From NCBI GenBank assembly GCA_001567355.1, contig JYNZ01000003.1, positions 6,655 through 70,654 of the forward strand: a stretch of 64,000 nucleotides of DNA. The letters run 5' to 3'. Positions 26,346 through 43,593 of the stretch are shown here, piece after piece; within the stretch, counting starts at the first letter, position 1; each line of letters starts with the position of its first letter. The translations under genes and the position numbers were made by a program. The stretch is from a candidate division WS6 bacterium OLB20. GTDB lineage: Bacteria > Patescibacteriota > Dojkabacteria > B142 > OLB20. The notes under the pieces are model-generated. The model did not search any database and was not told the DNA's origin. It saw only the letters and a list, made by a program, of their open reading frames with translations.

Positions 26346-26399
26346 GGCAGTATGGTATTGTAATGGTGTTATTATACCGTACTGAACCGCCGTTGAGTA

Positions 26400-27759: not shown

Positions 27760-27928
27760 CAGAATTGTTAAGAGTTTTGAATCATCAGGAGAACAGACTG
27801 ATATAGACAGAGCACTCAAAGACTATGAGGAAGCTATGAAACTCGTATCCGAAATCCGCACGCAACTGAGCGGTGTCGAACTGAAGATCAAGGAGATACA
27901 GGACAAGTACAGCGAGGATCAGGACTGA
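27713..27928 (+). CDS. xseB: Exodeoxyribonuclease VII small subunit
   Basis: [44 protein letters not shown]; overlaps the xseA stop. Confidence 0.75.
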   Translation: MAQQKQTLQGKLDSLDRIVKSFESSGEQTDIDRALKDYEEAMKLVSEIRTQLSGVELKIKEIQDKYSEDQD

Positions 27929-29448: not shown

Positions 29449-30079
29449 GAAAGTATTTACCTGTGCAGCGGTTGCAGCATTGCTGCTTTCTGTTTTACTC
29501 CTGCCAGTCCTAATCATATCAGGCCGGTCTGCTTATTTTGCAGGAGCGTTTAGCAGACACAGTCAGGCCATAACAGCTATGGGGACTGATCCTGAGCGCG
29601 ATTTCGCATACTTTGAGCAGGTTCTGGCGGTCATGCACGGATACGGGAGCGATCTTGATCCCGCATACTATTCGGTAGAGGATCAGCTGCATATGCGCGA
29701 TGTAGCCGAACTAACCGCATCAGCAAAACTTGTAACGGCAACCTCCGTGCTGCTGATCTGTATCTATTTTGTGCGTCTGCCGTCAGGAAAAAGACTGCAG
29801 CAACTCAGGCGTATATCCTCTGTTGCACTTGGTATTACAATTGCATCCGCAGCGGCGGTCGTTCTGCTGTTCGAACCGCTGTTTATTATGTTCCATAAGG
29901 TGTTTTTCAGCACAAATACCTTCTGGCAGCTTGATCCCGCCACATCCAGACTGATCAGGTTTTTGCCTCAGGATCTGTTTGCCGAACTTGTACTCATCTC
30001 TGTAACGCTTTCTGCACTAATACTATGCGCGATGTTTGTCTTTGCTATAATCTTGGAACGATGGCAGAAAAAACAGTAG
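29417..30079 (+). CDS. Integral membrane protein
   Basis: 220-aa ORF with four or five predicted TM helices. Confidence 0.4.
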   Translation: MQKNVLPGAVEKVFTCAAVAALLLSVLLLPVLIISGRSAYFAGAFSRHSQAITAMGTDPERDFAYFEQVLAVMHGYGSDLDPAYYSVEDQLHMRDVAELTASAKLVTATSVLLICIYFVRLPSGKRLQQLRRISSVALGITIASAAAVVLLFEPLFIMFHKVFFSTNTFWQLDPATSRLIRFLPQDLFAELVLISVTLSALILCAMFVFAIILERWQKKQ

Positions 30080-31210
30080 CTCTCACAGGCGGGCATCTGA
30101 CGCCTGCTCTTGCAGTAGCTGAGGAGCTTGCAAAACAGAATGTCAGGGTAATCTGGTTCGGGGTAAAGCATTCCCAGACAGCAGACAGCCGCTTCAGCGC
30201 GGAATACGAGGCTGTGACAGCAAGGGGAATTACTTTTATCCCGTTTACAGCCGGTAAGCTGTGGCGAAAATGGACCGCAGCAACGTTTTTTTAAAGGTCT
30301 AAAGAATCTGTTACTTATCCCTGTCGGCTTTGTCTTTGCGGTCTATCTTATGCTGCGCCACAGACCCGATACACTGCTTTCTTTTGGAGGATACACAGCA
30401 CTGCCGCTGGTCGTGGCAGCACGGCTCACCGGGATCAGGACAGCGACTCATGAGCAGACGACTGTCATTGGCCTTGCCAACCGCATCATCGGAAAACTTT
30501 CTCACAGGGTCTACCTCTCATGGCCGCAGTCTGCAGCATTCTCTGATCCAGCCAAAACTCTTGTTACCGGGAATCCGGTCCGCGAGGAGGTACGTTCGAC
30601 TCATACTGACGTATTTAAGCTGCAGGACTCTGCCCCTGTTATATACATCACCGGGGGCAATCAGGGGGCAAACACCATCAACTGGCGGCTGCGGGACACA
30701 ATTGCCGAAATTCTGGCTGTTGCCCAGGTGATTCATCAGACAGGCTCATCAGAACTGACAAAAGATTATGAACGTGCACTGCAGGTCCGCGAACAGCTTC
30801 CGGATCATCTGCAAAAGCGGTATATCATCAGGGACAGAATCTTCGGTAAGGAGATAGGGGAGGCGTTTGCCAAAGCAGATCTGGTCGTGAGCAGAGCAGG
30901 GGCAAATACAATCACAGAATTGCTGCTGCTTGGTAAACCGGCACTGCTGATCCCAATTCCATGGAGTTCTCACAATGAACAGCAGAAGAATGCTGAACTG
31001 GTTGCAGAAACCGGTCTGGCAACTATACTCACACAGTATGACGCCATGCCTCCGCAGGAACTGAGGGATGCGATCCTGACAGCACTTGGGACAGTTGAGC
31101 AGGGGAAGGCGTTTAACGGCAGCTCACTGGCAGAAGCGCAGACTCAGGCCTCAGCCCTTGTAAAGGCAGACGCTGCAGCAGTAATAACAGCTGATCTCCT
31201 GTTACTCTGA
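30061..31210 (+). CDS. murG: Undecaprenyldiphospho-muramoylpentapeptide beta-N-acetylglucosaminyltransferase, with a frameshift in a T7 run at 30286-30292
   Basis: The N-terminal ALTGGHLTPALAV and C-terminal GANTITELL...IPWSSHNEQQKNA halves are in different frames. Confidence 0.85.
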
Positions 31211-32095
31211 GGCTGACTTTACGATCTCTCTGGTTGCTTTTCCGTATTCTTCACTTGCCATCATGTAACGCACCTGCGCCTCAAAGTACCGGGCAGGGTC
31301 CCCGGTTGTATACCAGGTGCCATCCTCGATCTGTTTGTAGCGATAGTTCATACGCTCAGCAAGTCTGTCGTTGGCGTCTGTCAGCCAGACCTCGTTGTCT
31401 TTTCCGGTTGCATCCGGTTTCAGATGCTCAAAAATCTCAAACGGAATGATAAACCTTCCGTACTGGGCAAAGTTGGTCTTTGCATCCTTGGGATCAGGTT
31501 TTTCGATAATCCGGCGGATCTGTCCGCTTGTCTCGTCCTGCGAGCCCTCAACGGGATCAACAATGCCGTACCGGTCGAGTTCCTTGTCCGGCACGTACTG
31601 CACGCCCATCACAGCGTCGGCTCCGGACTGCTCGTAATACTCCTTGAGTTGCGACAAAGCGCTCCTGGTTTTAGTCAGCACGAGGTCATCAGCAAACAGG
31701 GCCGCAAACGGCTCGCCTTCTGTGAGCAGATGCCGTGCAGAAATAACTGGTGACCCGTTACCGTACGGAAGGTCAGGATCCTGATCAATGATTGTGATGT
31801 TGCCCATATTCAGCACCCGGAGCACATCTTCAAAACGTTCTGACTTACCCTGATCTGCAAGCAGCTTTTCCATATGAGGCACCTGCTCGTAAAAATAGTT
31901 GCGGATAACCTCGTTACCCTTTCGTACAACTATGATAATTTCCTCCAGGCCCGCGTCCACACATTCCTCGACAACATACTGGATAATCGGCTTATTAATA
32001 ATCGGAAGCATCTCCTTGGGAGTGCTCTTTACAACCGGCAGAAAACGGGATCCAAAGCCCGCTGCGGTAATAACTGCTTTTTTCACCTGTCTCAT
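31202..32095 (-). CDS. galU: UTP--glucose-1-phosphate uridylyltransferase
   Basis: KAVITAAGFGSRFLPVVKSTPKEMLPIINKPIIQY. Confidence 0.85.
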   Translation of the reverse strand: MRQVKKAVITAAGFGSRFLPVVKSTPKEMLPIINKPIIQYVVEECVDAGLEEIIIVVRKGNEVIRNYFYEQVPHMEKLLADQGKSERFEDVLRVLNMGNITIIDQDPDLPYGNGSPVISARHLLTEGEPFAALFADDLVLTKTRSALSQLKEYYEQSGADAVMGVQYVPDKELDRYGIVDPVEGSQDETSGQIRRIIEKPDPKDAKTNFAQYGRFIIPFEIFEHLKPDATGKDNEVWLTDANDRLAERMNYRYKQIEDGTWYTTGDPARYFEAQVRYMMASEEYGKATREIVKSASE

Positions 32096-32359
32096 CGTTA
32101 TAAACGCTCTTTAACTAATGCCTGAAGTCTACCCCAGACAGCTGATAAGAGCAACTATGCAGGTTTTTGCTCCTGTTTGATCTGTGCTATACTGGAACGT
32201 ATGTTTCTGAAGTTGCTGATCACATGCGTGACAGCTTAAACTATTAGAAAGGGTCGCTGGCAGTGCCTGCGGCATCCCAGGATAAGTACGAAAGTACGGG
32301 CAACAACAACACTTCTCAGCTCCCACCCGGGAGTATTTTTCCGCATATTTATCACACTG

Positions 32360-32935
32360 GTGGCCATTACGGGTATGCTGGTTGTGTCAGTCAGTTTTCA
32401 TATCAAGACTATCGCATCAACACCGTCCACTGTTCTGCTACCTTTACCAACGCCGGAAGCGTCGTTTAATCTAGGTGCACCAAGCCCCGAGACCTATGCT
32501 GTCGCAGTAGACAAAAAGCAGGTTGAAGAAGAACGCAAGGCAGAGGAGGAGCGCAGACGTGTCGCACGCGAGAACACAATCAATAATCTTGTTAACTATC
32601 TACGCAGAAACGGCTCTCCGATTGCTACCTATGATTATGCGGCACAGATTGTAGATCTGTCTGCTGCAAACGGGGCTGACTACAAAGTCGTCGTTGCCAT
32701 TATGGGAGTGGAGTCCGGATTCTGCCGTGCCTCTTTCTGGCACAACTGTTTCGGTTATCTCAACGGTGTAAAATATAGCTCATATACCAGCGCACTCAAC
32801 GATCTTGTCCCCAAAGTCTCACGTCAGTATGCGGCCCGCTACGGCTGGAACTTTGAGGCTCTTGCCAAGGCATACGGCCAGCATGAGTGGGAGCGTACAT
32901 CTGCCAACATGAGGTGGTTTGCGAGCAGAATCTGA
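32360..32935 (+). CDS. Hypothetical TM-anchored protein (GTG start)
   Basis: 191-aa ORF with an N-terminal hydrophobic segment. Confidence 0.35.
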   Translation: MAITGMLVVSVSFHIKTIASTPSTVLLPLPTPEASFNLGAPSPETYAVAVDKKQVEEERKAEEERRRVARENTINNLVNYLRRNGSPIATYDYAAQIVDLSAANGADYKVVVAIMGVESGFCRASFWHNCFGYLNGVKYSSYTSALNDLVPKVSRQYAARYGWNFEALAKAYGQHEWERTSANMRWFASRI

Positions 32936-33148
32936 CACGCTGCACCTTCGGCATGCTGGCGAGCGCTGGTGCATCAGGTTGTTAGTATTGATCCATCGTG
33001 GATGACTTTGAACAGTTTGACGAGATTGAATCATGCCTCAGCTGCATTGTAAGTGCCGCCTTCTGGATTCTTGTAATCAAACTGCTGTTCTAACTCCATG
33101 ATAGGCCCCGGTGACTACTGAATCAGACACCACTGCGTCTTTACAGAT

Positions 33149-34139
33149 TTGCCATGCCGGGTTATAGTCTATGTTGCATATTACTTTACTGCTGTGCTTC
33201 TGTTAGATCTCCTATTACTGTTTTTGTTTCTGGCTATCCTGATCAAGTCTGCTGATGTATTGCAGGATGCTTTTGTGACAATTGCACACAAACTCCGTCT
33301 GAATCTGTTTCTGATCGGATTTGCAGTCCTCAGTTTTGCGTCATCGCTGCCAGAGATATCTGTAGCTGCAAGCGCATCGTTAGATAATGTTCCCGGACTG
33401 TCGATCGGTAATCTTCTCGGGGCAACAATTGTTCTGCTTACACTGGTAATCGGGTTAAACGCAATCAGGCACCGTGAACTGCCATTCAAGGGCGGGTATT
33501 CGTTCGGCTTTCTTACCATGTCTATGGCAGTAATCGGTACAATGGTTCTTACGCTTGCTGATCAGCATCTGAGCAGACTTGATGGCATTGTGCTGATTTC
33601 ACTCTATGTTTTTTCAACATTTCTGATTGTCCAGAGAGTCAGCAGGAAAAAGGAGCGTAAAAGCAGAAAGAAGATTCATCCATTCAAGCTGCTGCTGTCA
33701 GCGGTCATTGGGACAGCCGGACTGATCATTGCCTCTCAGCTGCTGGTTGATAAAGCTGTTGTTATTGCCAGCCAGCTTGGGGTGCCAAATGCTCTGATTG
33801 GACTTGGAATGCTTGGTCTGGGAACAAATCTGCCCGAAATTACCATGCTGGTCCGGAGCAACAGCGCAGAAAAGGAAAAAACTTGCAGTCGGCAACTTTA
33901 TCGGGAGCGCGTCAATGAACGTGCCGACGATGGGTTTGCTGGCAATCCTTAATCCGCACACGATTAACAGCTTTACAGCCCTGGTTCCGGCGATGATCAC
34001 AATTGCAATAACCCTGCTTGTGTTTTTGCGGTTTGCATATACCGGTCAGGCCATTACGCGCAAAGAAGGGTATGCACTGGTGGCAATCTATGTCATCTGG
34101 CTGACGGCGGAGATGTTTGTTTCGGTGTATCAGTACTAG
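33149..34139 (+). CDS. CaCA family Na+/Ca2+ antiporter, split by a frameshift at the A6 run 33876-33881
   Basis: Both alpha-repeat motifs (GNLLGATIV..., GNFIGSASMNV) lie in two overlapping ORFs. Confidence 0.75.
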
Positions 34140-34170
34140 GTCAGCAAGACCGACAACAAAGCGGGGGGGG

Positions 34171-34260
34171 GTAATTCCCAGTAGTGGTAAAATTACCGCA
34201 CAAGGGAATATGCGGAGCATGACGTTTTTATTCCCCGTAATTCCCCGTAGTGTAAAATAC
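34171..34260 (+). CRISPR. Mini CRISPR-like array: degenerate partial repeat (34171-34196), 27-nt spacer (34197-34223), full 37-nt repeat (34224-34260)
   Basis: The full repeat is GTTTTTATTCCCCGTAATTCCCCGTAGTGTAAAATAC. The partial repeat is GTAATTCCCAGTAGTGGTAAAATTAC and contains an extended -10 (TGGTAAAAT). Nucleotides 1-22 of the full repeat can pair with the 5' end of the small RNA at 38757-38857. Confidence 0.45.
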
Positions 34261-34272
34261 CACATCCGAAAA

Positions 34273-34292
34273 CCCTCCAGAGGAGGGTTTTT
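34273..34292. terminator. Palindromic, apparently bidirectional terminator shared by cas2 (minus) and the mini-array transcript (plus)
   Basis: ccctcc-agag-gaggg is flanked by A-runs on one side and T-runs on the other. Confidence 0.65.
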
Positions 34293-34314
34293 ACGTGTTC
34301 TCGAGCTGGATAAA

Positions 34315-34639
34315 TCAGAACATCAACACCTGTCCCGTTGGTACTTTTAACTCCTGCAATGTTTTTGTACCTACCAGTATCTTCATGTTTTCAAACTGAC
34401 GCTCGGTCACAACCATCGCTCGTACCGAGCCATCATCGGGCAGATTAGACTCGAGTCGCTGCATATGCTTTTTTTACGCCATCGAGTCCGTTACACAGTC
34501 TGCAATATACAGAGAACTGAAGCATGTCATACCCGTCTTTTTCGAGGAACTTGTGAAACCGGCTGTATGCACGTCTGGCATCTTTATCGGATACTGGCAG
34601 GTCAAACAGCACGAGGATTCTCATAAACTTGTTATGCAT
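34315..34639 (-). CDS. cas2: CRISPR-associated endoribonuclease Cas2, with a frameshift in a 7-nt homopolymer at 34469-34475
   Basis: MRILVLFDLP...LQFSVY in the annotated frame. After the run, the -1 frame continues LPDDGSVRAMVVTERQFENMKILVG to a stop at about 34315. Confidence 0.75.
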
Positions 34640-35537
34640 AAGTATGTTGCTTTTGTGCCACAATAACCGGCAGCTTCAGGCTTCCGGGGCTGTTATTTTC
34701 GACTGCTGTTACCAGAGATTTCACCATTTCTTCAATTGCATTTTGCGTACTCATGCGCTTATCGTCCTGCGTTACCTGAATACCAAGTGATCTGACCAAA
34801 GAGGCTTTTACCGCCGGATTTAATGTTTCATCTAGCTCCGGATGAGATGCTACAACAAGATCGACAACCGGCCGGAATGGTTCGATCAGGTCGTCTGCAA
34901 GGTTAAAATTGTTGTACTCATTTTTATGATGGATACCGATACTTGGAATAAAACCATATGCAGCAAGCGAGCGGGCAATTGCGCCCCTGATGACAGCGTA
35001 ACCGTAGTTTAATGCTGCATTGGTTGTATCGTCTGCAAACCTGGCAAACCCTTCAGGAAACAACCTCTGAAAGTAAAAGCGAGCAGCATAGGACTCAAGG
35101 TTACCTGCATCTCCCGACTTTACCCTGGCTGCAGTCATCATCAGCTGGTCGGCACCACTGGAGCCAAGGAGTTTTAATACACGAGCCTGATTACGGATCT
35201 TTTCGCGGACCAACAGCTGCCATAGTCGCTTTTTAAAGACTGCCTTCATCGCGAGTTGCTGCTGCATCCTTTTACGCTGACGGACATGACTCTGAAAAGG
35301 GAGGGCAATACCATGCGGCAGATGCTGGTCATTGCAGAAGTAGACTGCAACATCATTGTGCATACACTCGCTCATAAATGGAGCACTGAGGGTTACCTGA
35401 GGATGCTCGATGATAACTGTTGCGATATCCTCCAGAGGCACAGCAACGTCGTTACCATCAGCGTACGAAAGTATCATGTTACCTGCGCGTGTGTGCAGGT
35501 GGGTGGGATTGGTTATGTAGACGGTGCGGTACGCCAC
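34632..35537 (-). CDS. cas1: CRISPR-associated endonuclease Cas1 (type II)
   Basis: Co-linear similarity to Neisseria Cas1 (VPLEDIATVIIE..., ALNYGYAVIRGAIARSL, NLADDLIEPFRPVVD). Confidence 0.9.
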   Translation of the reverse strand: MAYRTVYITNPTHLHTRAGNMILSYADGNDVAVPLEDIATVIIEHPQVTLSAPFMSECMHNDVAVYFCNDQHLPHGIALPFQSHVRQRKRMQQQLAMKAVFKKRLWQLLVREKIRNQARVLKLLGSSGADQLMMTAARVKSGDAGNLESYAARFYFQRLFPEGFARFADDTTNAALNYGYAVIRGAIARSLAAYGFIPSIGIHHKNEYNNFNLADDLIEPFRPVVDLVVASHPELDETLNPAVKASLVRSLGIQVTQDDKRMSTQNAIEEMVKSLVTAVENNSPGSLKLPVIVAQKQHTYA

Positions 35538-38500
35538 GGGACTTTCCTCTCTTTCTCTCTGGAAAGCGCGTACTTCCTCCCAAGGGGATCAATGTAATAT
35601 TTAGTTACTTTCATCGACTTTATTCCAATACTTCTTTTACTCCACGAGTTATCATGTCCTCGGACTTCAACTGAGGCTGTTGCTCTGTCTGCTTTTACAT
35701 AGTACCCCTCAATAATTTTATCTTTTCCAGTAAGGCAGACGTAATCATCAGGATAGATGGACAACACGAATGTATCTTCCCGCATTTCTGGCCATTCCAA
35801 GTAATCAGCACCGGATTTACTCGCTTTTCGTGGCAACAAGTTACCTGCAAGTTCTCCTATATAAATTGGCACAAAGTAAGTTCCCTTATCCTCGAAGATA
35901 TCTATCCTTATCATATTATCCTGTGCAGCGACTCCATCATTCTTCAGTTGTACAAAACTGCTCGCAGGTCCATCAATAATCTTCACCCGTTTAACTTCAT
36001 TCTGCTGTCTGCCTTCTCTAGCTGGTTTAAGTACAGGCTCTTTAAATGCGGCTTCTGCATCCCACATAAATGCCTCGAGCCTGTCTTTTAACACCTTTAC
36101 CAGCTGAGGGTCATCGCCATAGATGAGATTCTGGTCGAAGTGTTTCTGTTCAAGTTTAGTTATCGGAATACGCTTGACCATCACTTTTCCTCGCTCTGCA
36201 TCTTTTACAGACATGACTGTCTCTTTGTGCAGAGCACCTGTCAGTTTGCGCTCCGCCTTCCGTGACACAAGTATCGGCCGGATCTGATCCAGAATGTCTT
36301 TGTATCTGTCATGCAACTCTGCGTAACTCTGCAGATCATTATGGAGTGTGGAGTCAGCAAAAACTCTAATTGCAAGATCTTTTGCAAAATACGGCCACGG
36401 CTCAGGGAAGTAGTCTTTAGCTTTCTGCGTATGCTCCTCCTGTTTCTTGAAAAATTCTGTTATACGTTGTTGCATTGAACTATCTGCGATAGCAACAATC
36501 ACAGCATCAAGCGCGTGATGTCTGTTTGATTCATCACGGTTTTTCAAATGGTTTACTCCCAGGTACCTACGCAGCATTGCTGTAACCCGTCCCTGAAAAG
36601 CAAAAATCCTTCTCTTAAATGGAGCTGGCTTAAATTCCAGGTGCTGCTCAAGAAACGACCGCAAGTAGCGCGAAATGTAACGGGTGTCGTTCATATCACG
36701 CTCCATAAAAGTCTTGATGTCTCGCTTGTCAAAATCCGTTGTCATTAAACGTTCTTTTTTATAAAGCGGCATATTTGACGTTTGCCACCAGGTCATTAGC
36801 TTTTTCCATAACTCTTCGTTTGTCCCAAGATACTCGTATACAGTCTTGCTGCCTTTATTCTGGTTCTGAGAACTGAGAACAAGCACCTTATTAAAGTATG
36901 AATCATCAAGACTCCTGCTGTAGGGAAGTATGTGATCAATTTCTGTATAAGTGTCATCACTGAAGAGCTTATCTGCCGGTATTGGCATTAATGAGTAAGC
37001 ACAATGATAGGCCTGCTCCGTCCAAAGTTTGTACTTTAAGATATCTTTGCCCTTTGGATCAGACAGGCCGAATTCGTTTTTTAATAGTCTAACTATCCTT
37101 TCATTCTCCTGCCTGTTATCTGCCTGCTGCTTTTCTATAGCACGGCGTTCTTCATGCGTTTTTGACACATCCCGTGCAAACTCGATATGTACCTTGAGAG
37201 GGGAGCCATACTCTTTGATAATGGCATTTACAACAACTCTGGTTTGAGCAAGTGCACGGATTACATTGAAATTTGTAAGGTTGTCAGTATCAATAGGGGG
37301 TAGGTATTTTTGTTGCAGACCGTTTTTTATCCTGATCTCTTCAGGAATTGCCTTAGTAACCGCATCGGAGTAAACCATCCCACTCTTTAATTCCGGGACT
37401 ATTAAATTGAGGGCCTTTTTGGACAGATGTAGAAACCCTTTCAGTTCCGCTATTGCTGATAGTTCCTTAAGCGCGTCATCCTTTATATCAGGGAACAGAC
37501 GTGTGAGTTCTGAGATAATAGCGTCCTCATCCTTATTGAATACCAGCACCTCGACAAGTGAGTCAGCTAGCTCAGTATCTTGATTGATTCTCTCAAGAAG
37601 TACGGGGTCAGTCTTTTTCAATGCCTTTTGAATTGCAGCGACTCCTTTCAGATTAACGAAGAATCCCTGTTTTTCTGAGTCATCTGCGACCTGTTCCCAA
37701 GTCACATTTTTATCTGCTTTCTTTGGTTTTCGGTAGTTAACATTTTTAAACGAAGTATCGTAGGGGAGTGAAAGAATTTTACGGATTCTATTGTGTTTAA
37801 CTGCTCCCTTTTGCAGTGCCTCTGCGACTATTAGCTCACGCTGGTGATCTGACAGCATGACATCCTCATATGACCCTTTCTGTCGCAATCTTAGATTATT
37901 AAGGTTAGAGTAGAGAATGAACAGTTCTGCAGTTCGAGTATTCTTTGCAAGCCGTGGTTCTTCGGCAAAGAACTCGCAGTTACCGATCTTTTCTTCAAGC
38001 GCTGATCGGTTCAGGAATGGTCGCTGAAAAAACATTTCGCCGAGTAGCCGTTCCTGTATATCCTCTGTCAGTCTTTCGTTTCCCAGCTCGCGCTGTCTCT
38101 TAAGTATCAGCCTTGCTTCGTCCTCAAGCATTTCTCGAGCAGTTACACCGATATACGATCCGGAGGAATTGCGTTTACGTTCTTTATACTTATCATCAAG
38201 AAGAAGCATCTCACCAACGGTTCTGTACCCTTTCTGTTTCATCAGGTTTCGGTTCTCAGCAACTGCTTCCAGTACCTTGCCTTCTTCTTTCTCGATTTCA
38301 CTTCTTCGATTAGATTTATACCCCCTGCGTTTAGCAATATGAAGGAGTGCCCGTGCAAGTTCGATACCAGACAACTTCCTTTCCAATGCTTCGAACCGAA
38401 GCTGATATGGGGTTAGATCCTTATTCGACAGCTGTGAGACCAAATCGTAGTACTCAGACCTGGAGGGAATAAGTCCTGAATTCTCAAGAATAGCTAGTGT

Positions 38501-38743
38501 GTGATTTAATCGTTGCCTGCGCCTGTTGAGCCTTCTTCTTGTGGATCTTGCTTCACGACGTTTTTAAGTTTGGCGATGCACCCGTCTTGGGGTCGCCAAC
38601 TTTATTCCAAACCCTCACGCCAAGGTCGTAAATCCGTTTAGGGGTAGTTCTGCCGAGTTTCTCATCTACATCCACCTCCATAACGCTCCACCCAGTGATG
38701 CTACCCCGATATCCAGTCCCAGTATGTAGTTAATATCTTTCAC
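35513..38743 (-). CDS. cas9: Type II-C Cas9 (about 1076 aa, GTG start) with two compensating frameshifts near its 5' end
   Basis: RuvC-I INYILGLDIGVAS, bridge helix ALLHIAKRRGY, HNH DHILPYSRSLDDSYFNKVLV and RuvC-III HHALDAVIVA are all present, with close similarity to NmeCas9. Residues GWSVMEVDVDEKLGRTTPKRIYDLGVRVWNKVGDPKTG are encoded in the -1 frame between a CCC run (38691-38693) and a T5 run (38561-38565). Confidence 0.9.
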
Positions 38744-38756
38744 GAATTCAATTCAT

Positions 38757-38857
38757 AAAAAAGTTGCCCGCAAGCCTGCACAAGCGTGCAGGCTCCGGGC
38801 AAGGGTTACGTAACTCCCAAGCGGGAGCTACTTATTTCTATAACCCGTAATTCCCTG
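38757..38857 (-). ncRNA. Candidate tracrRNA (or cas9 5'-leader RNA): promoter, anti-repeat-like 5' end, nexus-like hairpin, terminator
   Basis: An extended -10 TTGATATAAT (38863-38872, minus strand) precedes 5'-(A)GGGAAUUACGGGUUAUAGAAAUAAG. Then a CUCCC-GCUU-GGGAG hairpin, a 9-bp GC hairpin (AGCCUGCAC/GUGCAGGCU) nested in GCCCG/CGGGC, and U6 (38757-38762). The cas9 GTG start is 14 nt downstream. Confidence 0.5.
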
Positions 38858-38862
38858 GCTGG

Positions 38863-38872
38863 ATTATATCAA
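38863..38872 (-). promoter_or_regulatory. Extended -10 promoter (TGnTATAAT) driving the candidate tracrRNA and the cas9 leader
   Basis: The minus strand reads TTGATATAAT, an exact TGnTATAAT match. Confidence 0.5.
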
Positions 38873-39532
38873 AGCTAATCATATATAGTCTACCCGTGAT
38901 TATTCAGAGGGTCGTAGGATGTAAGATTGTATTTATCTGCAGTTCTATATATTCAAGAATGCTGAGGCTGTTTAGAGCTATGGTTATGCCTCGGGCACAA
39001 GACAGCCCGATGCTGCTCTCCAGGATTTTACACCTTTAGCGTTCTCACCATCAGATCGCAGACTCTGATACCCCGAATCCGGGATCCGACCTCAGGTTCA
39101 GATCTCATCTACAGACGCTAAAGTTCAATACTGGCAGAACGACTGTGCAAGTGGGCTCTACTACTGCTTTGAACAAACATACCCTCTCTGAGCGCAGGGT
39201 TCCCCGATGAGACTCTCCAGTGAGCTTATCCGTGAATTAGCCACCAGAATGTTTTATAACGATGTTCGCAATTTAATCAGTGTTTGTTGATTCTGATTCA
39301 TATTCCAATTCGTCTTGCGAGACTTGTCTAAACGCTGCATTTCGCGGCTATGGTCATTGCTCAAACAAAGCTATAGAGTCTCCTTGCACTGCAAGGGATA
39401 CACAACTAATCCAAGGTAAGATCTGTAGGTAAGGTGTGTCCCTGACGTCCGACCTTACTCGCTGTTTCGGTCTTTCTTTCCTTTTCTAACCCCCCTCATT
39501 TGTTTTAAGATAAGAACATCACACAAACAGAC

Positions 39533-42500
39533 ATGTCTTCACAGAATTTCGTACATCTGCATCTGCACACAGAGTATTCGCTGCTTGACGGCGTTGCCAA
39601 GGTTAAGCCGCTTCTTGAGAAAGTAAAGGAGCAGGGGATGAACGCATGCGCCATTACTGACCACGGTGTCATGTACGGAGTATACGAGTTCTGGAACTAT
39701 GCAAAAGAACTGGGTATCAAGCCGATCCTGGGTTGTGAGATATATGTTGCCCACCGCACAAGGCATGACAAAGAGACGGGAGTGGACAATAAGCGCTACC
39801 ATCTGACCCTGTTTGCCAAAAACCTCACCGGCTACAAAAACCTGCTTAAGATTGTCTCAAAATCACATACAGAAGGCTTCTACTACAAGCCACGAGCTGA
39901 CCGCGAGCTTCTCGAAAAATATGGTGAGGGACTGATTGCGCTCTCAGGATGTCTGGCCAGCAACTTTAACCGGCATCTGGCTAAAGGCGAACGTGCCAAA
40001 GCCGTCGAATGGCTCTCGTTTCTTAAGAAAAATATCGAACATGTCTATGTCGAGGTGCAGCGTAACGGTATCAAAGAATCACATGACCTGATCCCGGAGC
40101 AGGTCGCAGTAGCCAAAGAACTCGGCCTGGAACTGGTTGCGACCTGCGACACACACTATCTCGAGCCCGAGGACCATAAAATCCAGGAGATTGTCTGGTG
40201 CATTAGCGACGGGCGCAAACTGACCGACCCGGAACGCAGACGGTACGGTTCGACAGAGTTCTATCTCAAAAACGCGGCCGAGATGCACAAACTCTTCCCG
40301 GATTATCCCGAAGCAGTTGAAAACTCGCAAAAGATTGCAGATATGGTCGAGATCTACAATATCGAGTTTGACCGAATCCAGCCCCGGTTTGATGAGAGCC
40401 TGGACAGCAAGAGTACCAGGGATCTTCTGTATGAACATACCATGGCAGGAGCAAAAAACCGCTACGACAAGATCACTCCCGAACTTCAGCAACGTATCGA
40501 TTACGAACTCGAGGTGATCCATGACAAAGGATATGACGACTACTTTCTCGTTGTTGAAGACTACATTAACTGGGCCCGCAGACAGGACATTCTTGTCGGC
40601 CCCGGGCGCGGTTCGGGTGCAGGCAGTGTTGTTGCATACTGTCTCGGGATCACCAACCTGGATCCGATCAAATGGGATCTCATTTTTGAACGCTTCCTCA
40701 ATCCCGAACGTATGTCGCCACCTGACTTTGACATCGATTTTCAGGACGACCGCCGGGACGAGCTGTTCCGCTACATGTCAGAAAAGTACGGCCGCGAAAA
40801 CACCTCCTTCATCGGCACATTCGGACGCCTGAAAACAAAGGCTGCAATCCGTGACGTTGCGCGCGTTATGGGTGTGGACCTGAGCATTGCAGACAAGCTG
40901 TCTAAAATGGTGATTGTCAAATTTGGGCGTGTACATTCCATCAAAATGATGCGTGAAGAGGTAAGTGAGTTTGATCAGATCATCAGGGGATCCAGCCAGC
41001 TTGAGGAGTTGTCGGGTTATGTAGGCAAACTTGAAAACCTTGCACGGCATGTTTCGATACATGCCTGCGGATACCTCGTCACACCCAGCCCGATTACAGA
41101 CTATGTACCGGTCCAGCTCGAGCAGAAAGGTGGTGACAAGATCATCACACAGATCGAAGGTCACAACCTCGAGCCGCTTGGACTGATGAAGTTTGACTTT
41201 CTTGGCCTGTCCAACCTGACCGTCATCGCCAATACCATCAAGCAGGTGAAGTATACCCACAACGTTGAGATCGATATTGATACCATTCCGCTTGATGATG
41301 AAAAAACGTTCAAACTCTTTCAGGAGGGTAATACAACCGGTGTCTTCCAGTTTGAGTCTGATGGCATGAAAAAGTATCTGCGCGACCTCAAACCCACCGA
41401 GGTAGAGGATCTGATCTTCCTTAACGCAGCGTACCGGCCCGGTCCGATGAAGTACATTCCTGATTACATCAAGCGCAAACAGGGTAAGGAACCGGTCAAG
41501 TATCCTGATCCAAGCCTTGAACAGGTCCTTAAGCCAACGTACGGTTTTGCCATCTATCAGGAACAGGTAATGAATATTGCAGTGGTCTTTGCCGGCTACT
41601 CACAGGGAGAGGCCGATATGCTCAGACGTGCAATGGGTAAAAAGAAGCCCGAAGTAATGGCCAAGGAAAAAGAAAAGTTTCTTGCCGGCGCCCAGAAACA
41701 GGGTCACAGTAAAAAAGTCGCTGAAGAAGTGTTTGCATACATGGAACCGTTTGCAGACTATGGCTTTAACCGGTCACACAGTGCATGTTACTCACTGATT
41801 GCCTACCAGACTGCCTATCTTAAGGCCAACTACCCGCTTGAGTTTCTTGCGGGTCTGATGGAGACAGATATCAACTCCTCAGACAAGCTGACCCGTGACC
41901 TGCGTGAGGCAAAGGCCATGAGTATTAAACTCAAGCCGCCCAGTGTCAATCACAGCTTCTACAGTTTCAGTATTGAAAACGGCGACTCAATCCGGTTCGG
42001 ACTTGGAGGTATTAAGGGTGGCGGCGAAAAAGCTATGAAGCGGATTGTCGAGCAGAGAATCGAACGTGGCGCATACACTGATATGCTTGATCTTGTCACA
42101 AGGGTCGGAAGCAGCAGTATTTCGCGCAAGGATCTTGAGGCGCTCGTTAAGGTTGGCGCATTTGATGAATTCGGCAACCGAAATCAGATGCTGGAGTTTA
42201 TCCCGTTTGTAACCGAAGCGGTCAGCCGCAAGGAAAAAAGCATGATGGGTGGACAGGGTTCTTTGTTTGGCGATGTGATCGAGCAGCATGAAGAGTATCA
42301 GGCCGAACCTCCCGAACTTCCCAGTGAAAGCGAAATGGACCGTCTCACATGGGAGAAGGAGCTTCTGGGTGCATATATCAGTTCACATCCACTCGACCGC
42401 TACGGTCACATGTTCCTGACAGGCGATGTCACTCCCTCAGAGCGTGCAAGGGGCCTGTCTGACGGGTCATCAATCAGAATGCTGGCCACAATCAGTGCAG

Positions 42501-42922
42501 CCAGGGTAATTTACACAAAGCGCGACAACAAACCGATGGCATTTGTAGAGCTTGAAGATATTGACGGCAAGTTTGACTGCGTCATGTTTACGAACGCATA
42601 CGACCAGCTCCGCGACAAACTAGGGGATCCAAACCCGGTAGTTGTGGTAGGCAAGGTCAGTTTGCGCAACGACGAGTTCAGCGTTATAATTGACGATCTC
42701 ATTCCCATTCAGGAGTACAACACGTCCGACGAGATAACTATAAGCATTCTCGAAGAGACAAATAAGGATCGTCTGCTGGAGCTGAAAACTGTGATCAAGG
42801 AAAATCCCGGGCACTTCAAGCTCAAGATCGTTTATGGAACGCCTATGAACCGGAAAGAGATTGTCAGAACTATTGAACCTAAACCTGATGTGCTTGCGGT
42901 AATAAACCGCTACCGAACCTGA
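39533..42922 (+). CDS. dnaE: DNA polymerase III alpha subunit
   Basis: PHP domain (HLHLHTEYSLLDG), polymerase core and OB domain in a 1129-aa uninterrupted ORF. Confidence 0.95.
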   Translation: MSSQNFVHLHLHTEYSLLDGVAKVKPLLEKVKEQGMNACAITDHGVMYGVYEFWNYAKELGIKPILGCEIYVAHRTRHDKETGVDNKRYHLTLFAKNLTGYKNLLKIVSKSHTEGFYYKPRADRELLEKYGEGLIALSGCLASNFNRHLAKGERAKAVEWLSFLKKNIEHVYVEVQRNGIKESHDLIPEQVAVAKELGLELVATCDTHYLEPEDHKIQEIVWCISDGRKLTDPERRRYGSTEFYLKNAAEMHKLFPDYPEAVENSQKIADMVEIYNIEFDRIQPRFDESLDSKSTRDLLYEHTMAGAKNRYDKITPELQQRIDYELEVIHDKGYDDYFLVVEDYINWARRQDILVGPGRGSGAGSVVAYCLGITNLDPIKWDLIFERFLNPERMSPPDFDIDFQDDRRDELFRYMSEKYGRENTSFIGTFGRLKTKAAIRDVARVMGVDLSIADKLSKMVIVKFGRVHSIKMMREEVSEFDQIIRGSSQLEELSGYVGKLENLARHVSIHACGYLVTPSPITDYVPVQLEQKGGDKIITQIEGHNLEPLGLMKFDFLGLSNLTVIANTIKQVKYTHNVEIDIDTIPLDDEKTFKLFQEGNTTGVFQFESDGMKKYLRDLKPTEVEDLIFLNAAYRPGPMKYIPDYIKRKQGKEPVKYPDPSLEQVLKPTYGFAIYQEQVMNIAVVFAGYSQGEADMLRRAMGKKKPEVMAKEKEKFLAGAQKQGHSKKVAEEVFAYMEPFADYGFNRSHSACYSLIAYQTAYLKANYPLEFLAGLMETDINSSDKLTRDLREAKAMSIKLKPPSVNHSFYSFSIENGDSIRFGLGGIKGGGEKAMKRIVEQRIERGAYTDMLDLVTRVGSSSISRKDLEALVKVGAFDEFGNRNQMLEFIPFVTEAVSRKEKSMMGGQGSLFGDVIEQHEEYQAEPPELPSESEMDRLTWEKELLGAYISSHPLDRYGHMFLTGDVTPSERARGLSDGSSIRMLATISAARVIYTKRDNKPMAFVELEDIDGKFDCVMFTNAYDQLRDKLGDPNPVVVVGKVSLRNDEFSVIIDDLIPIQEYNTSDEITISILEETNKDRLLELKTVIKENPGHFKLKIVYGTPMNRKEIVRTIEPKPDVLAVINRYRT

Positions 42923-43593
42923 TGCATACATTCAAAAAACACTACGGTCAGAATTTTCTTACAAACAGCAGGTTTGTAATCGAGCTTGTTGCGGCAGCAG
43001 AGCTGAATCCGCAGACACGTGTACTTGAAGTCGGTCCCGGCGACGGTGCAGTTACTGAATTTCTGCTGGAGCAGGCGCATGATGTAACATCTGTCGAGAT
43101 TGACACTGACCTGATTGCTCCCCTTAGCGCAAAGTTTTCGGATTACATCAGCAACGGACGCTACCGGCTGCTCAATGACGATATTCTGCGCTTTGACCCC
43201 GAAGTCTACTTCGGAACTGATCCCTACACAGTGGTAGGGTCTCTGCCGTACAACATTTCCAAAAAAATCATCTCACTGTTTCTGCAAAGCAGCCACAAGC
43301 CCGAAAAGATGTCACTCATTCTGCAGAAGGAAGTTGCAGTTGACTACGTCACACCCGCACCAAAAGCATCATTTCTGCATACAGTCACAGCACTTTATGC
43401 CGACTGCAGACTTGTCGAGACAATCCCGGCCAAGGCATTTTATCCCGAACCAAAAGTGGACGGAGGCATCATGACAATCAGTCCCGTTGCAGGGCGTTAC
43501 AGCCGGATGAAGGAACTGATCCGGTTTATCAAAATCGGTTTCAGTTCACCGCGAAAAAAAAGTCAGCTCAAATCTGAACAATGCCGGATATGA
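42922..43593 (+). CDS. rsmA: 16S rRNA (adenine1518-N6/adenine1519-N6)-dimethyltransferase, C-terminus probably truncated by a frameshift at the A8 run 43554-43561
   Basis: KHYGQNFL...VLEVGPGDGAVTEFL...GSLPYNIS motifs; the ORF ends about 40 aa short. Confidence 0.75.
   Translation: MHTFKKHYGQNFLTNSRFVIELVAAAELNPQTRVLEVGPGDGAVTEFLLEQAHDVTSVEIDTDLIAPLSAKFSDYISNGRYRLLNDDILRFDPEVYFGTDPYTVVGSLPYNISKKIISLFLQSSHKPEKMSLILQKEVAVDYVTPAPKASFLHTVTALYADCRLVETIPAKAFYPEPKVDGGIMTISPVAGRYSRMKELIRFIKIGFSSPRKKSQLKSEQCRI

What the first reader, a model, noticed from the sequence alone, without database searches (positions are those of the whole stretch)
34160..38880. AT-richer type II-C cas9-cas1-cas2 island flanked by a shared 12-mer (CCCGTAATTCCC), with no leader-array unit
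Sampled 60-nt lines within cas9 run about 40-42% GC, against about 50-52% in flanking dnaE and the transporter genes. That is consistent with horizontal acquisition of the cas operon between a CaCA transporter gene and dnaE. The exact 12-mer CCCGTAATTCCC occurs at 38844-38855 upstream of cas9 and at 34234-34245 downstream of cas2, and a 9/12 copy at 34171-34179. A specific 12-mer is expected by chance fewer than 0.01 times in a window of this size. The copies most likely reflect the anti-repeat and repeat relationship, but they also mark the island boundaries. Cas9 and Cas1 are close relatives of the Neisseria meningitidis proteins (PYQLRFEALERKL versus PWQLRAAALDRKL; ALNYGYAVIRGAIARSL versus ALNYTYAVLRAAVARTL), which is unexpected in a genome of this gene content.
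Basis: partly seen in the sequence, partly recalled or inferred. Interest (0 to 1): 0.6.

Follow-up and report, generated by a model that had tools for sequence, protein, structure and literature searches.

The report
Compact CRISPR-Cas9 locus with one-spacer array
This is an ordinary but complete type II-C CRISPR-Cas9 defence module (guide-helper RNA, cas9, cas1, cas2 and a tiny one-spacer array) inserted next to dnaE in a candidate-phyla-radiation bacterium, and the shared 12-mer is simply where the CRISPR repeat pairs with its helper RNA.

Summary

**What it is.** Window 34158-38892 is a compact type II-C module in candidate division WS6 (Dojkabacteria) bacterium OLB20. On the minus strand the order is tracrRNA, cas9, cas1, cas2, then a conserved terminator/leader. 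A minimal array follows, read from the plus strand: degenerate repeat r1, a 30-nt spacer, then repeat r2.

**The 12-mer.** CCCGTAATTCCC is the core of the repeat:anti-repeat duplex (-28 kcal/mol). It co-varies in the nearest relative (CCCAT/ATGGG). It is not an insertion scar.

**The array.** "No leader-array unit" is wrong. The array exists but is too small and degenerate for repeat finders. r1 carries an extended -10 box (TGGTAAAAT), as in Neisseria and Campylobacter II-C repeats.

**Acquisition.** This is supported. Relatives have orf32360 directly next to dnaE. The closest genome has 9 kb of unrelated genes there. The same module sits elsewhere in another low-GC genome. cas9 has the lowest GC of 42 ORFs.

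**Neisseria link.** "Close relative of Neisseria" is wrong. Identity is 36%, against 61% to the CPR-like relative.

cas9 (twice) and cas2 are frameshifted at homopolymers. This is probably an IonTorrent artefact, because murG, xseA and other genes are also split. However, Logan contigs from other SRA runs reproduce the frameshifts, so this is unresolved.

It is a new member of a known kind, of modest interest.

The parts
38863..38892 (-). tracrRNA promoter: TAGACT, 18-nt spacer, TG-n-TATAAT (extended -10)
   Evidence: The promoter scan scored 10 of 12 with TG present. The TGATATAAT box is conserved in L081.
38752..38856 (-). tracrRNA. The anti-repeat is at 38832-38855 and contains GGGAATTACGGG at 38844-38855. 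It is followed by stem-loop 1, a long terminator hairpin and a U6 run at 38752-38757.
   Evidence: The fold is -53.4 kcal/mol with z = -6.2. L081 has the same architecture with z = -6.1. There are 2 + 2 compensatory pairs between the two. A terminator was detected at 38785-38766. The duplex with r2 is -28 kcal/mol. There is no Rfam match.
35513..38743 (-). cas9, with a GTG start 9 nt after the tracrRNA U-run. As the sequence stands it is broken by two homopolymer frameshifts: a G3 run at 38691-38693 that needs one more G, and a T5 run at 38561-38565 (plus strand) that has one base too many. The longest ORF is 35513-38443 (976 aa).
   Evidence: The three reading frames are shown. The corrected protein is 1076 aa and 60.6% identical over its full length to the L081 Cas9 of 1071 aa. 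It matches TIGR01865 and the PADLOC Cas9 model at residues 6-1066. The RuvC-I, RuvC-II, RuvC-III and HNH motifs are intact.
34632..35537 (-). cas1 (301 aa, intact)
   Evidence: It matches TIGR03639 cas1_NMENI at 1e-85 and Cas1_II at 3.9e-108. It is 54% identical to the L081 Cas1.
34315..34639 (-). cas2, with one frameshift in a T7 run at 34469-34475 (plus strand). Removing one base gives 107 aa.
   Evidence: The reading frames are shown. The corrected protein is 77.6% identical to the L081 Cas2, also 107 aa. It matches Cas2_II at 2e-42.
34259..34314 (.). Segment between cas2 and the array. It contains a bidirectional terminator hairpin (CCCTCC-AGA-GGAGGG at 34273-34287, flanked by A and T runs) and the repeat-proximal flank ACCAC. 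This is the candidate leader.
   Evidence: The hairpin folds at -17.7 and -15.0 kcal/mol on the two strands. It aligns with L081, including a compensatory change in the hairpin. The leader function is an inference from the N. meningitidis leader-adjacent repeat R26 (PMC12477760).
34224..34258 (+). CRISPR repeat r2, the cas-proximal copy: GTTTTTATTCCCCGTAATTCCCCGTAGTGTAAAAT. Its 5' 22 nt pair with the tracrRNA. It contains the 12-mer at 34234-34245.
   Evidence: The sequence is. The duplex is 12 bp, a 2x2 internal loop, then 8 bp, at -28 kcal/mol. It is homologous to the single L081 repeat.
34194..34223 (+). The single 30-nt spacer, TACCGCACAAGGGAATATGCGGAGCATGAC
   Evidence: The repeat period is 66 nt (family D2). 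No protospacer was found in the window, in IMG/VR or in JGI metagenomes.
34158..34193 (+). Degenerate terminal repeat r1. Only the 3' part at 34171-34193 (GTAATTCCCAGTAGTGGTAAAAT) is conserved. It carries an extended -10 box, TGGTAAAAT, that points into the spacer. Its 5' half is replaced by a G9 run.
   Evidence: The sequence is (family D2). It pairs with the tracrRNA over only 9 bp, at -14.4 kcal/mol. The L081 repeat has TGGTACAAT at the same place. Repeat-embedded promoters in II-C arrays are described in PMC5965381 and PMC12477760.
32936..39532 (.). Variable interval between the conserved genes orf32360 and dnaE. It holds the CaCA antiporter gene (33149-34139, frameshifted at the A6 run at 33876-33881), the CRISPR-Cas module, and a 640-nt ORF-free stretch (38893-39532).
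   Evidence: In relatives L003 and L004, orf32360 and dnaE are adjacent. L001 has 9 kb of unrelated genes at the same place.

Best explanation
Window 34158-38892 is a complete, compact type II-C CRISPR-Cas9 module in a Dojkabacteria (WS6, candidate phyla radiation) genome.

**How it probably works**
- An extended -10 promoter at 38863-38892 (minus strand) drives a tracrRNA of about 105 nt.
- The tracrRNA terminator ends 9 nt before the cas9 GTG start. cas9-cas1-cas2 are therefore most likely expressed by read-through of that terminator. This step is inferred.
- Downstream of cas2, after a conserved bidirectional terminator, lies a minimal array that is transcribed convergently, from the plus strand.
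- The degenerate outer repeat r1 supplies an extended -10 promoter (TGGTAAAAT). Transcription would start about 6-7 nt into the 30-nt spacer.
- The transcript runs into the intact repeat r2. The first 22 nt of r2 pair with the tracrRNA anti-repeat, as 12 bp (the 12-mer), a 2x2 internal loop, then 8 bp.
- The result is a single crRNA:tracrRNA guide for Cas9. Cas1-Cas2 would add spacers at the cas-proximal repeat (inferred).

**History**
- The module was acquired horizontally into a variable interval between orf32360 and dnaE. The donor was probably a lower-GC CPR-type organism.

**Frameshifts**
- The homopolymer frameshifts in cas9 and cas2 are most probably IonTorrent sequencing errors, so the system is probably intact in the cell.

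**Shown and inferred**
- Shown here: sequence anatomy, RNA complementarity and folds, homology, synteny, composition.
- Inferred: transcription start sites, read-through expression of cas9, spacer acquisition polarity, interference activity.
For: **Protein identities**
- Searches give the family matches.
- All Cas9 catalytic motifs are intact.

**tracrRNA**
- The promoter and terminator were both detected.
- The fold has z = -6.2.
- L081 has the same architecture with compensatory changes.

**Repeat:anti-repeat pairing**
- The r2 duplex is -28 kcal/mol, against -10 +/- 2.7 for shuffled repeats.
- There is an intermolecular compensatory change. OLB20 has CCCGT/ACGGG and L081 has CCCAT/ATGGG.

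**Array**
- The period is 66 nt.
- r1 and r2 each share different states with the L081 repeat.
- The repeat and the anti-repeat are identical on the same strand. The array must therefore be transcribed opposite to the tracrRNA and cas9.
- This matches what was shown experimentally for N. meningitidis and C. jejuni, where the mutated repeat also sits at the transcription-upstream end (PMC3737331).
- Repeat-embedded promoters in II-C arrays are documented in PMC5965381 and PMC12477760.

**Acquisition**
- orf32360 and dnaE are adjacent in L003 and L004. L001 has a different 9-kb insert at this site.
- Homology to L081 is confined to window 34217-38886, and L081 sits in a different genomic context.
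- cas9 has a GC z-score of -4.3.
- The L081-type host has GC 0.373 and its cas9 has GC 0.365.

**Frameshifts as artefact**
- The source genome was assembled from IonTorrent data, and the authors describe "persistent frameshifts" (PMC4821891).
- Every frame break I pinned down to the base (cas9 twice, cas2, CaCA) is in a homopolymer run. The junctions of the other split genes also contain such runs.
- Essential murG, xseA, a UvrD-nuclease gene and CaCA are also split.
- The 43 codons between the two cas9 frameshifts are still highly conserved with L081.
Against: - Logan contigs from other SRA runs (SRR29904083 and SRR29904084) are 100% identical to the window over 28 kb (window 13508-41537), including every frameshift. 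If those runs are an independent platform, the frameshifts are real and the locus is decaying.
- No protospacer was found for the spacer.
- r2's own -10 box lacks one base (TG-TAAAAT).
- r1 is degenerate.
- Covariation rests on only two sequences.
- cas1 composition is not deviant.
- The 61% identity to the nearest module is also compatible with old vertical descent followed by losses.
- There are no expression data.
Confidence: 0.8

Rival explanations
1. The locus is decaying. The frameshifts in cas9 (two) and cas2 are real mutations, and the array has eroded to one spacer with a degenerate repeat. The module would then be a recently inactivated remnant on its way to loss in a streamlined CPR genome.
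For: There are three frameshifts in two of the three cas genes. Logan contigs from the different SRA runs SRR29904083 and SRR29904084 reproduce them exactly. The array is minimal and r1 is degenerate. CPR lineages are reported to select against CRISPR-Cas (PMC4742961).
Against: The source data are IonTorrent, with acknowledged residual frameshifts. The same type of lesion hits essential murG as well as xseA, a helicase gene and CaCA. That is at least 8 lesions in 17 kb, which is implausible biologically. There are no in-frame stops or non-homopolymer indels in 1076 + 301 + 107 codons. The catalytic motifs are intact and the sequence between the two cas9 frameshifts is conserved. The platform of the newer runs is unknown.
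Confidence: 0.2
2. The true array is longer, and both assemblies collapsed it to the terminal repeat, one spacer and one repeat.
For: De Bruijn assemblers can collapse or skip arrays of identical 36-nt repeats. The nearest relatives, which are on Logan contigs built with k=31, also show only 1-2 repeats.
Against: Two independent assemblies pass through the array without a break and give the same sequence: a 744-kb NCBI contig and a 54-kb Logan contig. L081-type contigs of up to 445 kb from several samples all show the same single repeat. A JGI assembly, L091, also has only 3 repeats.
Confidence: 0.15
3. The two 12-mers are direct repeats created by insertion of the island, that is att sites or a target-site duplication.
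For: They lie within about 100 nt of the two ends of the stretch that is homologous to L081.
Against: The same pair, with a compensatory substitution, flanks the module at an unrelated genomic site in L081. One copy lies inside a promoter/terminator-bounded structured RNA, and the other lies inside a 66-nt-periodic repeat. No integrase, transposase or tRNA gene is nearby. An exactly repeated 12-mer in 4.7 kb is expected by chance about once.
Confidence: 0.02

Closest known systems
Neisseria meningitidis / Campylobacter jejuni type II-C CRISPR-Cas9 (Zhang et al. 2013; Chylinski et al. 2013, PMC3737331; PMC5965381)
   Same: The operon is cas9-cas1-cas2 only. The unit is 36-nt repeats with 30-nt spacers. 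The array lies downstream of cas2 and is transcribed opposite to the cas genes. An extended -10 promoter is embedded at the 3' end of the repeat. The degenerate repeat is at the transcription-upstream end. The tracrRNA has a 5' anti-repeat.
   Different: Cas9 is only about 36% identical. The tracrRNA abuts the cas9 start codon, with a 9-nt gap and no room for a separate cas9 promoter. The array has a single spacer, against 25 in the N. meningitidis 8013 array (PMC12477760). The host is a CPR bacterium.
Unnamed module on Logan contigs L081-L086 (Cas9 P0002; CPR-like host with GC 0.37)
   Same: It is the same module from end to end. Cas9 is 61% identical, Cas1 54% and Cas2 78%. The tracrRNA, the terminator/leader and the repeat are all homologous.
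   Different: It sits in a different genomic context, between an EamA gene and hypothetical genes. It has only one repeat and no spacer. Its GC matches its host.
Best solved-structure matches: PDB 9ar4, 8jtj, 8uza and 8uzb. I take 8uza and 8uzb, at 1087 residues, to be GeoCas9, from memory.
   Same: They give the best sequence matches among solved structures, at 578-586 bits, aligned over residues 9-965 of the 976-aa ORF. They are type II-C in size and domain order.
   Different: They are distant relatives. The PAM-interacting domain and the PAM cannot be inferred.
Type II-C1 systems in other CPR lineages (Saccharibacteria, Gracilibacteria; PMC10746230)
   Same: They are also cas9-cas1-cas2 systems without csn2 in CPR genomes. 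This shows that II-C in CPR is already known.
   Different: The phylum is different, and no sequence comparison was made here. Their arrays yielded 1,296 spacers in 147 arrays, so they are not minimal.
N. meningitidis engineered short-array and single-repeat (R26) strains (PMC12477760)
   Same: A one-repeat or one-spacer II-C array with intact cas genes and tracrRNA. In that work, apoCas9 boosts spacer acquisition in this state.
   Different: Those are laboratory constructs. Here the state is natural, and it recurs in relatives. Its activity is untested.

Membership tests
Type II-C CRISPR-Cas | Cas9 with RuvC-I/II/III and HNH nuclease motifs | tested here: met
   TIGR01865 at 1.7e-180. The PADLOC Cas9 model matches residues 6-1066 of the corrected protein. 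The motifs GLDIG, IEFARD, DHILP...N and HHALDA align with seven other Cas9s.
Type II-C CRISPR-Cas | cas operon limited to cas9-cas1-cas2, with no csn2 and no cas4 | tested here: met
   From the ORF map and family scans, the next features are the array and CaCA on one side and the tracrRNA and dnaE on the other.
Type II-C CRISPR-Cas | tracrRNA with an anti-repeat complementary to the repeat, a structured 3' tail and a terminator | tested here: met
   Promoter and terminator detected. Fold z = -6.2. Duplex with r2 at -28 kcal/mol. Conserved with covariation in L081.
Type II-C CRISPR-Cas | CRISPR array of about 36-nt repeats with about 30-nt spacers | tested here: met
   Met only minimally. There are two repeat copies at a 66-nt period. 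r2 is full length and r1 is degenerate in its 5' half. There is no other array in the window.
Type II-C CRISPR-Cas | Intact reading frames for cas9, cas1 and cas2 | tested here: inconclusive
   cas1 is intact. cas9 has two homopolymer frameshifts and cas2 has one. They are probably IonTorrent errors, but they are reproduced in Logan contigs from other runs.
Type II-C CRISPR-Cas | RNA-guided, PAM-dependent DNA cleavage and spacer acquisition | not testable with these tools
   No protospacer was found, so no PAM can be inferred.
Neisseria/Campylobacter-style II-C with repeat-embedded crRNA promoters | Extended -10 box (TGnTAnAAT) at the 3' end of the repeat in the crRNA sense | tested here: met
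   r1 has TGGTAAAAT and the L081 repeat has TGGTACAAT. r2 has TG-TAAAAT, one base short. Actual transcription was not tested.
Neisseria/Campylobacter-style II-C with repeat-embedded crRNA promoters | Array transcribed opposite to the cas operon, with the degenerate repeat at the transcription-upstream end | tested here: met
   The repeat and the anti-repeat are identical on the same strand, so the crRNA and the tracrRNA must come from opposite strands. r1, which is cas-distal, is the degenerate copy. This matches PMC3737331.
   Cas9 is 35.8% identical to N. musculi Cas9, the same as to Firmicutes II-C proteins, and 61% to the CPR-like P0002.
Horizontally acquired genomic island | Absent from the orthologous site in related genomes | tested here: met
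   orf32360 and dnaE are adjacent in L003 and L004. L001 has unrelated content there. No cas genes lie near dnaE in any of the 30 best-matching loci examined.
Horizontally acquired genomic island | Composition deviating from the host genome | tested here: met
   cas9 has GC z = -4.3 and GC3 z = -2.4. cas1 is not deviant, at z = -1.1. Part of the deviation is due to amino-acid composition: GC1 and GC2 are also low.
Horizontally acquired genomic island | Mobility signatures: integrase or transposase, an adjacent tRNA gene, flanking direct repeats from insertion | tested here: not met
   There are no such genes in 32-40 kb. The only tRNA gene is at 189-263. The 12-mer pair is functional RNA sequence, not a duplication.

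The most novel reading that the evidence does not exclude
A lineage of type II-C systems, including this one and its nearest relatives, may persist naturally with only 0-2 spacers. OLB20 has one spacer. L081 and L090 have a lone repeat. L092 has two repeats and L091 has three. Some or all of the hosts appear to be CPR or small-genome bacteria. These systems would then be natural counterparts of the laboratory array-neogenesis or "R26" state. Either they are kept in an apoCas9 high-acquisition mode with rapid spacer turnover, or they use a single fixed crRNA for a role other than immunity. The tracrRNA would double as the 5' leader and attenuator of the cas9 mRNA.
Probability: 0.12. Interest if true: 0.55.

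Novelty: new member of a known kind. Interest (0 to 1): 0.3.

Why it matters
CRISPR-Cas is rare in the candidate phyla radiation. It was found in 1.4% of 354 genomes that included WS6 (PMC4742961). A complete type II-C module in a Dojkabacteria genome is therefore a useful data point, and it offers a compact Cas9 of about 1076 aa with a clearly defined tracrRNA and repeat for guide design.

The case also shows three practical points:
- A degenerate two-repeat array is invisible to standard array finders and can be mistaken for "no array".
- A repeat/anti-repeat match can be mistaken for island-boundary repeats.
- Homopolymer frameshifts in IonTorrent-derived MAGs can make an intact defence system look broken. 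The public annotation is a 976-aa N-terminally truncated Cas9.

If minimal arrays really are the norm in this clade, they would be natural material for testing the apoCas9 acquisition-feedback model that was described in Neisseria.

Tried and rejected
- **Spacer target.** There was no match in the window at up to 3 mismatches. There was no exact match for the 25- or 20-nt cores in IMG/VR, or for the 22-nt core in JGI metagenomes.
- **Other arrays with this repeat.** The pattern ATTCCCCRTAATTCCCNGTAGTG found nothing in metagenome or viral contigs.
- **Rfam.** A scan of 32000-40000 at E <= 1 gave no hit, so the tracrRNA is not in a curated family.
- **Five-way tracrRNA consensus.** RNAalifold on the five divergent tracrRNAs (window, L081, L090, L092, L091) failed because the MAFFT alignment was too poor. 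Only 4 pairs were predicted. I used separate folds and a structure-guided two-sequence comparison instead.
- **Names for the nearest Cas9 clusters.** Almost none carry an organism name. The L081 host could be placed only loosely as CPR-like, through a neighbouring P-type ATPase whose named homologues are all Patescibacteria.
- **The 640-nt ORF-free stretch at 38893-39532.**
  - It has no ORF of 60 aa or more.
  - Its folds are unremarkable, with z = -1.4 and -0.6.
  - It has no similarity to the dnaE-upstream regions of relatives.
  - It remains unexplained.
- **Remnants of the L001 insert.** Its genes leave no trace in the window.
- **Publication for the newer runs.** A search for a paper citing SRR299040xx found nothing.
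- **Rejected readings.** The att or target-site-duplication reading of the 12-mer is rejected, and so is a specific Neisseria origin.

Full report
**Observation**

The 12-mer CCCGTAATTCCC occurs exactly twice in the window, at 34234-34245 and 38844-38855, both on the plus strand. A 9-nt core, GTAATTCCC, recurs at 34171-34179.

GC in 500-nt windows falls to 0.41-0.45 across cas9. The flanks are at 0.48-0.52. Per gene, cas9 has the lowest GC of 42 ORFs in the window:

| Gene | GC | z against background | GC3 | z |
|---|---|---|---|---|
| cas9 | 0.431 | -4.3 | 0.425 | -2.4 |
| cas1 | 0.482 | -1.1 | 0.483 | -0.8 |
| CaCA | 0.466 | -2.1 | 0.455 | -1.6 |
| background | 0.500 +/- 0.016 | | 0.514 +/- 0.038 | |

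For any repeated 12-mer in this 4.7-kb region, about 0.95 pairs are expected. Three are present, and two of them are meaningless. The 12-mer is meaningful because of its context, not because of its length.

**Organism**

The 976-aa Cas9 ORF is identical to a protein deposited as Cas9/Csn1 of "candidate division WS6 bacterium OLB20". The DnaE N-terminus finds Dojkabacteria genomes as its closest relatives. The best is the complete genome CP129475, at 81% identity. The host is therefore a Dojkabacteria (WS6) member of the candidate phyla radiation.

**Anatomy**

All cas genes are on the minus strand.

1. *tracrRNA promoter.* A sigma-70-type promoter with an extended -10 box (TAGACT, 18 nt, TG-n-TATAAT) lies at 38892-38863.
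2. *tracrRNA.* An RNA of about 105 nt follows.
   - It begins with the anti-repeat GGGAAUUACGGGUUAUAGAAAUAA.
   - It continues with a stem-loop and a long G+C-rich hairpin, and ends in U6 at 38752-38757.
   - It folds at -53.4 kcal/mol, with z = -6.2 against shuffles.
3. *cas9.* The GTG start is at 38743, only 9 nt after the U-run. cas9 runs to 35513.
4. *cas1.* It lies at 34632-35537, is 301 aa and is intact.
5. *cas2.* It lies at 34315-34639.
6. *Terminator.* A hairpin at 34273-34287 with an A-run before it and a T-run after it can act as a terminator in both directions.
7. *Array.* Two copies of a repeat follow at a 66-nt period (family D2).

Read on the plus strand, the repeats are:
- r1 at 34158-34193: AAAGCGGGGGGGGGTAATTCCCAGTAGTGGTAAAAT
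- r2 at 34224-34258: GTTTTTATTCCCCGTAATTCCCCGTAGTGTAAAAT

The 30-nt spacer lies at 34194-34223.

The first 22 nt of r2 pair with the tracrRNA anti-repeat. The duplex is 12 bp (the 12-mer), a 2x2 internal loop, then 8 bp. Its energy is -28 kcal/mol, against -10 +/- 2.7 for shuffled repeats. r1 pairs over only 9 bp, at -14.4 kcal/mol.

The repeat and the anti-repeat are identical on the same DNA strand. The crRNA must therefore be transcribed from the strand opposite to the tracrRNA and cas9, that is, from the plus strand.

r1 ends in TGGTAAAAT, a perfect extended -10 box that points into the spacer. The picture is therefore as follows. r1 supplies the promoter, the spacer supplies the guide, r2 supplies the tracrRNA-binding handle, and the hairpin stops transcription before it runs antisense into cas2.

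No automated array finder would call this. There is not even a 10-mer repeated at CRISPR spacing.

**Comparison with a relative**

The only close Cas9 relative among 5.8 billion proteins is P0002, at 61% identity and 1071 aa. It occurs on Logan contigs of up to 445 kb from several samples (loci L081-L086).

- Translated similarity between L081 and the window is confined to window 34217-38886. That runs from the repeat to the tracrRNA promoter.
- The genomic context is unrelated. In L081 an EamA transporter gene lies upstream and hypothetical genes lie downstream.
- The L081 tracrRNA has the same promoter box and the same architecture, with z = -6.1.
- Compared helix by helix, stem-loop 1 and the base of the terminator stem each carry two pairs that changed on both sides.
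- The upper terminator helix has a different sequence but is still a helix.
- The anti-repeat has ACGGG in OLB20 and AUGGG in L081. The repeat has CCCGT in OLB20 and CCCAT in L081. This is an intermolecular compensatory change.
- The segment between cas2 and the repeat is also homologous, including a compensatory change in the terminator hairpin.
- L081 has a single repeat and no spacer. Its -10 box is TGGTACAAT.

These comparisons settle the 12-mer. It is selected RNA-RNA complementarity inside the module. It is not a scar of insertion.

**Comparison with known biology**

- In N. meningitidis and C. jejuni type II-C loci, the array is transcribed opposite to the cas operon. The mutated repeat lies at the end opposite to the usual prediction (PMC3737331).
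- In those loci, crRNAs start from promoters embedded in each repeat (PMC5965381). They initiate at the 6th nt of each spacer (PMC12477760).
- The OLB20 locus has all of these sequence features.
- The gene content, with no csn2 and no cas4, makes it type II-C.
- All the strong matches among solved structures are Cas9 chains of about 1055-1095 residues. The top group (9ar4, 8jtj, 8uza, 8uzb) scores 578-586 bits. The next group (6jdq and related), which I take from memory to be Nme1Cas9, scores 530 bits.
- Type II-C1 systems have already been reported in other CPR lineages (PMC10746230).

**Is Cas9 close to Neisseria?**

No. The corrected Cas9 compares as follows:

| Comparison | Identity |
|---|---|
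| Neisseria musculi Cas9 | 35.8% |
| Sporomusa and Virgibacillus Cas9 | 35.6-36.1% |
| P0003, P0004 (low-GC contigs) and P0053 (a Patescibacteria MAG) | 38-40% |
| P0002 | 61% |

**Acquisition**

I mapped window proteins onto the loci fetched around dnaE relatives and read the 30 best.
- L004 has the order galU, orf32360, dnaE, with a gap of about 375 nt.
- L003 has orf32360 and dnaE about 160 nt apart.
- L001, the closest genome, has galU and orf32360, then 9 kb of unrelated genes, then dnaE. Those genes encode an ECF sigma factor, a fasciclin protein, lectin-domain proteins and hypothetical proteins.
- None of the 30 has cas genes or a CaCA gene there.

The interval 32936-39532 in OLB20 is therefore a variable slot.

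The CaCA gene in this interval is of Dojkabacteria type. Its best named homologue is 57% identical and comes from "Candidatus Dojkabacteria bacterium". In those genomes, however, the gene lies elsewhere. The ancestral junction is therefore orf32360|dnaE, not CaCA|dnaE.

The L081-type host has GC 0.373, and its cas9 has GC 0.365. The OLB20 cas9, at 0.43 in a genome of 0.50, fits partial amelioration after transfer from a lower-GC donor. Part of the deviation comes from amino-acid composition, since GC1 and GC2 are also low.

No integrase, transposase or nearby tRNA gene was found.

Acquisition is the more parsimonious reading. Old vertical descent with relocation and losses is not excluded.

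As deposited, cas9 is broken twice near its 5' end.
- A G3 run at 38691-38693 needs one more G.
- A T5 run at 38561-38565 (plus strand) has one base too many.

The 43 codons between the two sites still read as conserved Cas9 sequence.

cas2 is broken in a T7 run at 34469-34475. CaCA is broken in an A6 run at 33876-33881.

Correcting one base at each site gives:
- Cas9 of 1076 aa, against 1071 aa in L081
- Cas2 of 107 aa, the same as in L081
- full-length profile matches for both
- intact RuvC and HNH motifs in Cas9

The genome comes from Speth et al. 2016. It was assembled from IonTorrent reads, and the authors state that "persistent frameshifts, common in IonTorrent data" were corrected by script and by hand (PMC4821891).

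Elsewhere in the window, murG, xseA and a UvrD-PDDEXK helicase gene are also split. The murG break is at a T7 run at 30286. The xseA pieces lie at 26400-27759. The helicase pieces overlap at 23508-23806. At least eight such lesions in 17 kb, including one in an essential cell-wall gene, point to artefact.

There is one observation against this. Logan contigs from SRA runs SRR29904083 and SRR29904084 carry this locus. L093 and L094 are 100% identical to window 13508-41537 with no gaps, and they include every frameshift. I could not determine the platform or origin of those runs.
- If they are independent high-accuracy data, the lesions are real and the locus is decaying.
- If they are the same technology or the same data, they add nothing.

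I rate artefact at about 0.75-0.8.

**Array size**

The one-spacer array could in principle be an assembly collapse. However, two assemblies pass through it unbroken and give identical sequence. r1 and r2 are also too different to form a de Bruijn hub.

Tiny arrays recur in the nearest Cas9 relatives:

| Locus | Cas9 | Identity to the 976-aa OLB20 ORF | Array |
|---|---|---|---|
| L081 | P0002 | 61% | 1 repeat |
| L090 | P0004 | 39% | 1 repeat |
| L092 | P0003 | 37% | 2 repeats |
| L091 (JGI assembly, GC 0.64) | P0005 | 36% | 3 repeats, then an IS21 element |

All four have the tracrRNA upstream of cas9 on the same strand and the array in the opposite orientation. Because three of the four are k=31 Logan assemblies, I treat this pattern as a lead and not as a result.

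It connects to recent work in N. meningitidis. There, arrays with a single repeat or 1-3 spacers leave Cas9 in the apo state, and that stimulates spacer acquisition (PMC12477760).

**Verdict**

- This is a new member of a known kind: a type II-C CRISPR-Cas9 module of the Neisseria/Campylobacter architectural style, in a CPR genome where such systems are rare but already recorded.
- Three details are mildly unusual: the one-spacer array, the tracrRNA abutting cas9, and the insertion into a variable slot next to dnaE.
- Interest is modest, at 0.3.

Noticed in passing
window 22559-31210: Several housekeeping genes are split at homopolymer runs. murG is in two pieces, 30025-30294 and 30350-31210, with a T7 run at 30286. 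xseA is split into 26400-27080 and 27355-27759. A UvrD-type helicase with a PD-(D/E)XK nuclease domain is split into 23508-25772 and 22559-23806. The pattern fits residual IonTorrent errors in the deposited genome.
   Followed up: partly
L093 and L094 (Logan SRR29904084 contig _277611, 54,164 nt; also SRR29904083), matching window 13508-41537: Contigs assembled from other SRA runs are 100% identical to the window with no gaps, and they include all the homopolymer frameshifts. The platform and origin of these runs are unknown. This conflicts with a simple sequencing-error explanation unless the data share a technology or a source.
   Followed up: partly
window 38893-39532: A 640-nt stretch between the tracrRNA promoter and dnaE has no ORF of 60 aa or more, no Rfam hit, no unusual folding (z = -1.4 and -0.6) and no similarity to the dnaE-upstream regions of relatives. 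It is not part of the module shared with L081. Its origin is unexplained.
   Followed up: partly
L001 954-10000 (CP129475, Dojkabacteria cMAG.21): The closest complete genome has a different 9-kb insert at the same orf32360|dnaE junction. It encodes an ECF sigma factor, a fasciclin-domain protein, an 803-aa protein with H-type lectin and laminin-G domains, and hypothetical proteins. The site is therefore a hot spot for variable gene content in this lineage.
   Followed up: partly
L081 14462-14500; L090 about 9370-9420; L092 about 9480-9580; L091 about 9260-9430: The nearest Cas9 relatives also have very small arrays of 1, 1, 2 and 3 repeats. In L091 the array is followed directly by an IS21-family transposase pair. 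In each locus the tracrRNA is upstream of cas9, and the array is oriented opposite to the cas genes. Three of the four loci are k=31 assemblies, so array collapse is possible.
   Followed up: partly
window 38743-38757 and L081 9984-10003: The tracrRNA terminator U-run ends 9 nt before the cas9 start codon in OLB20 and 17 nt before it in L081. This leaves no room for a separate cas9 promoter. cas9 expression presumably depends on read-through of the tracrRNA terminator. L090, by contrast, has about 60 nt with a TATAAT-like box between the two.
   Followed up: no
window 42922-43593: The ksgA/rsmA ORF (223 aa) matches only positions 2-213 of the 256-position profile and overlaps the dnaE stop codon. 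It may be truncated at its C-terminus. There is no homopolymer run at its end.
   Followed up: no
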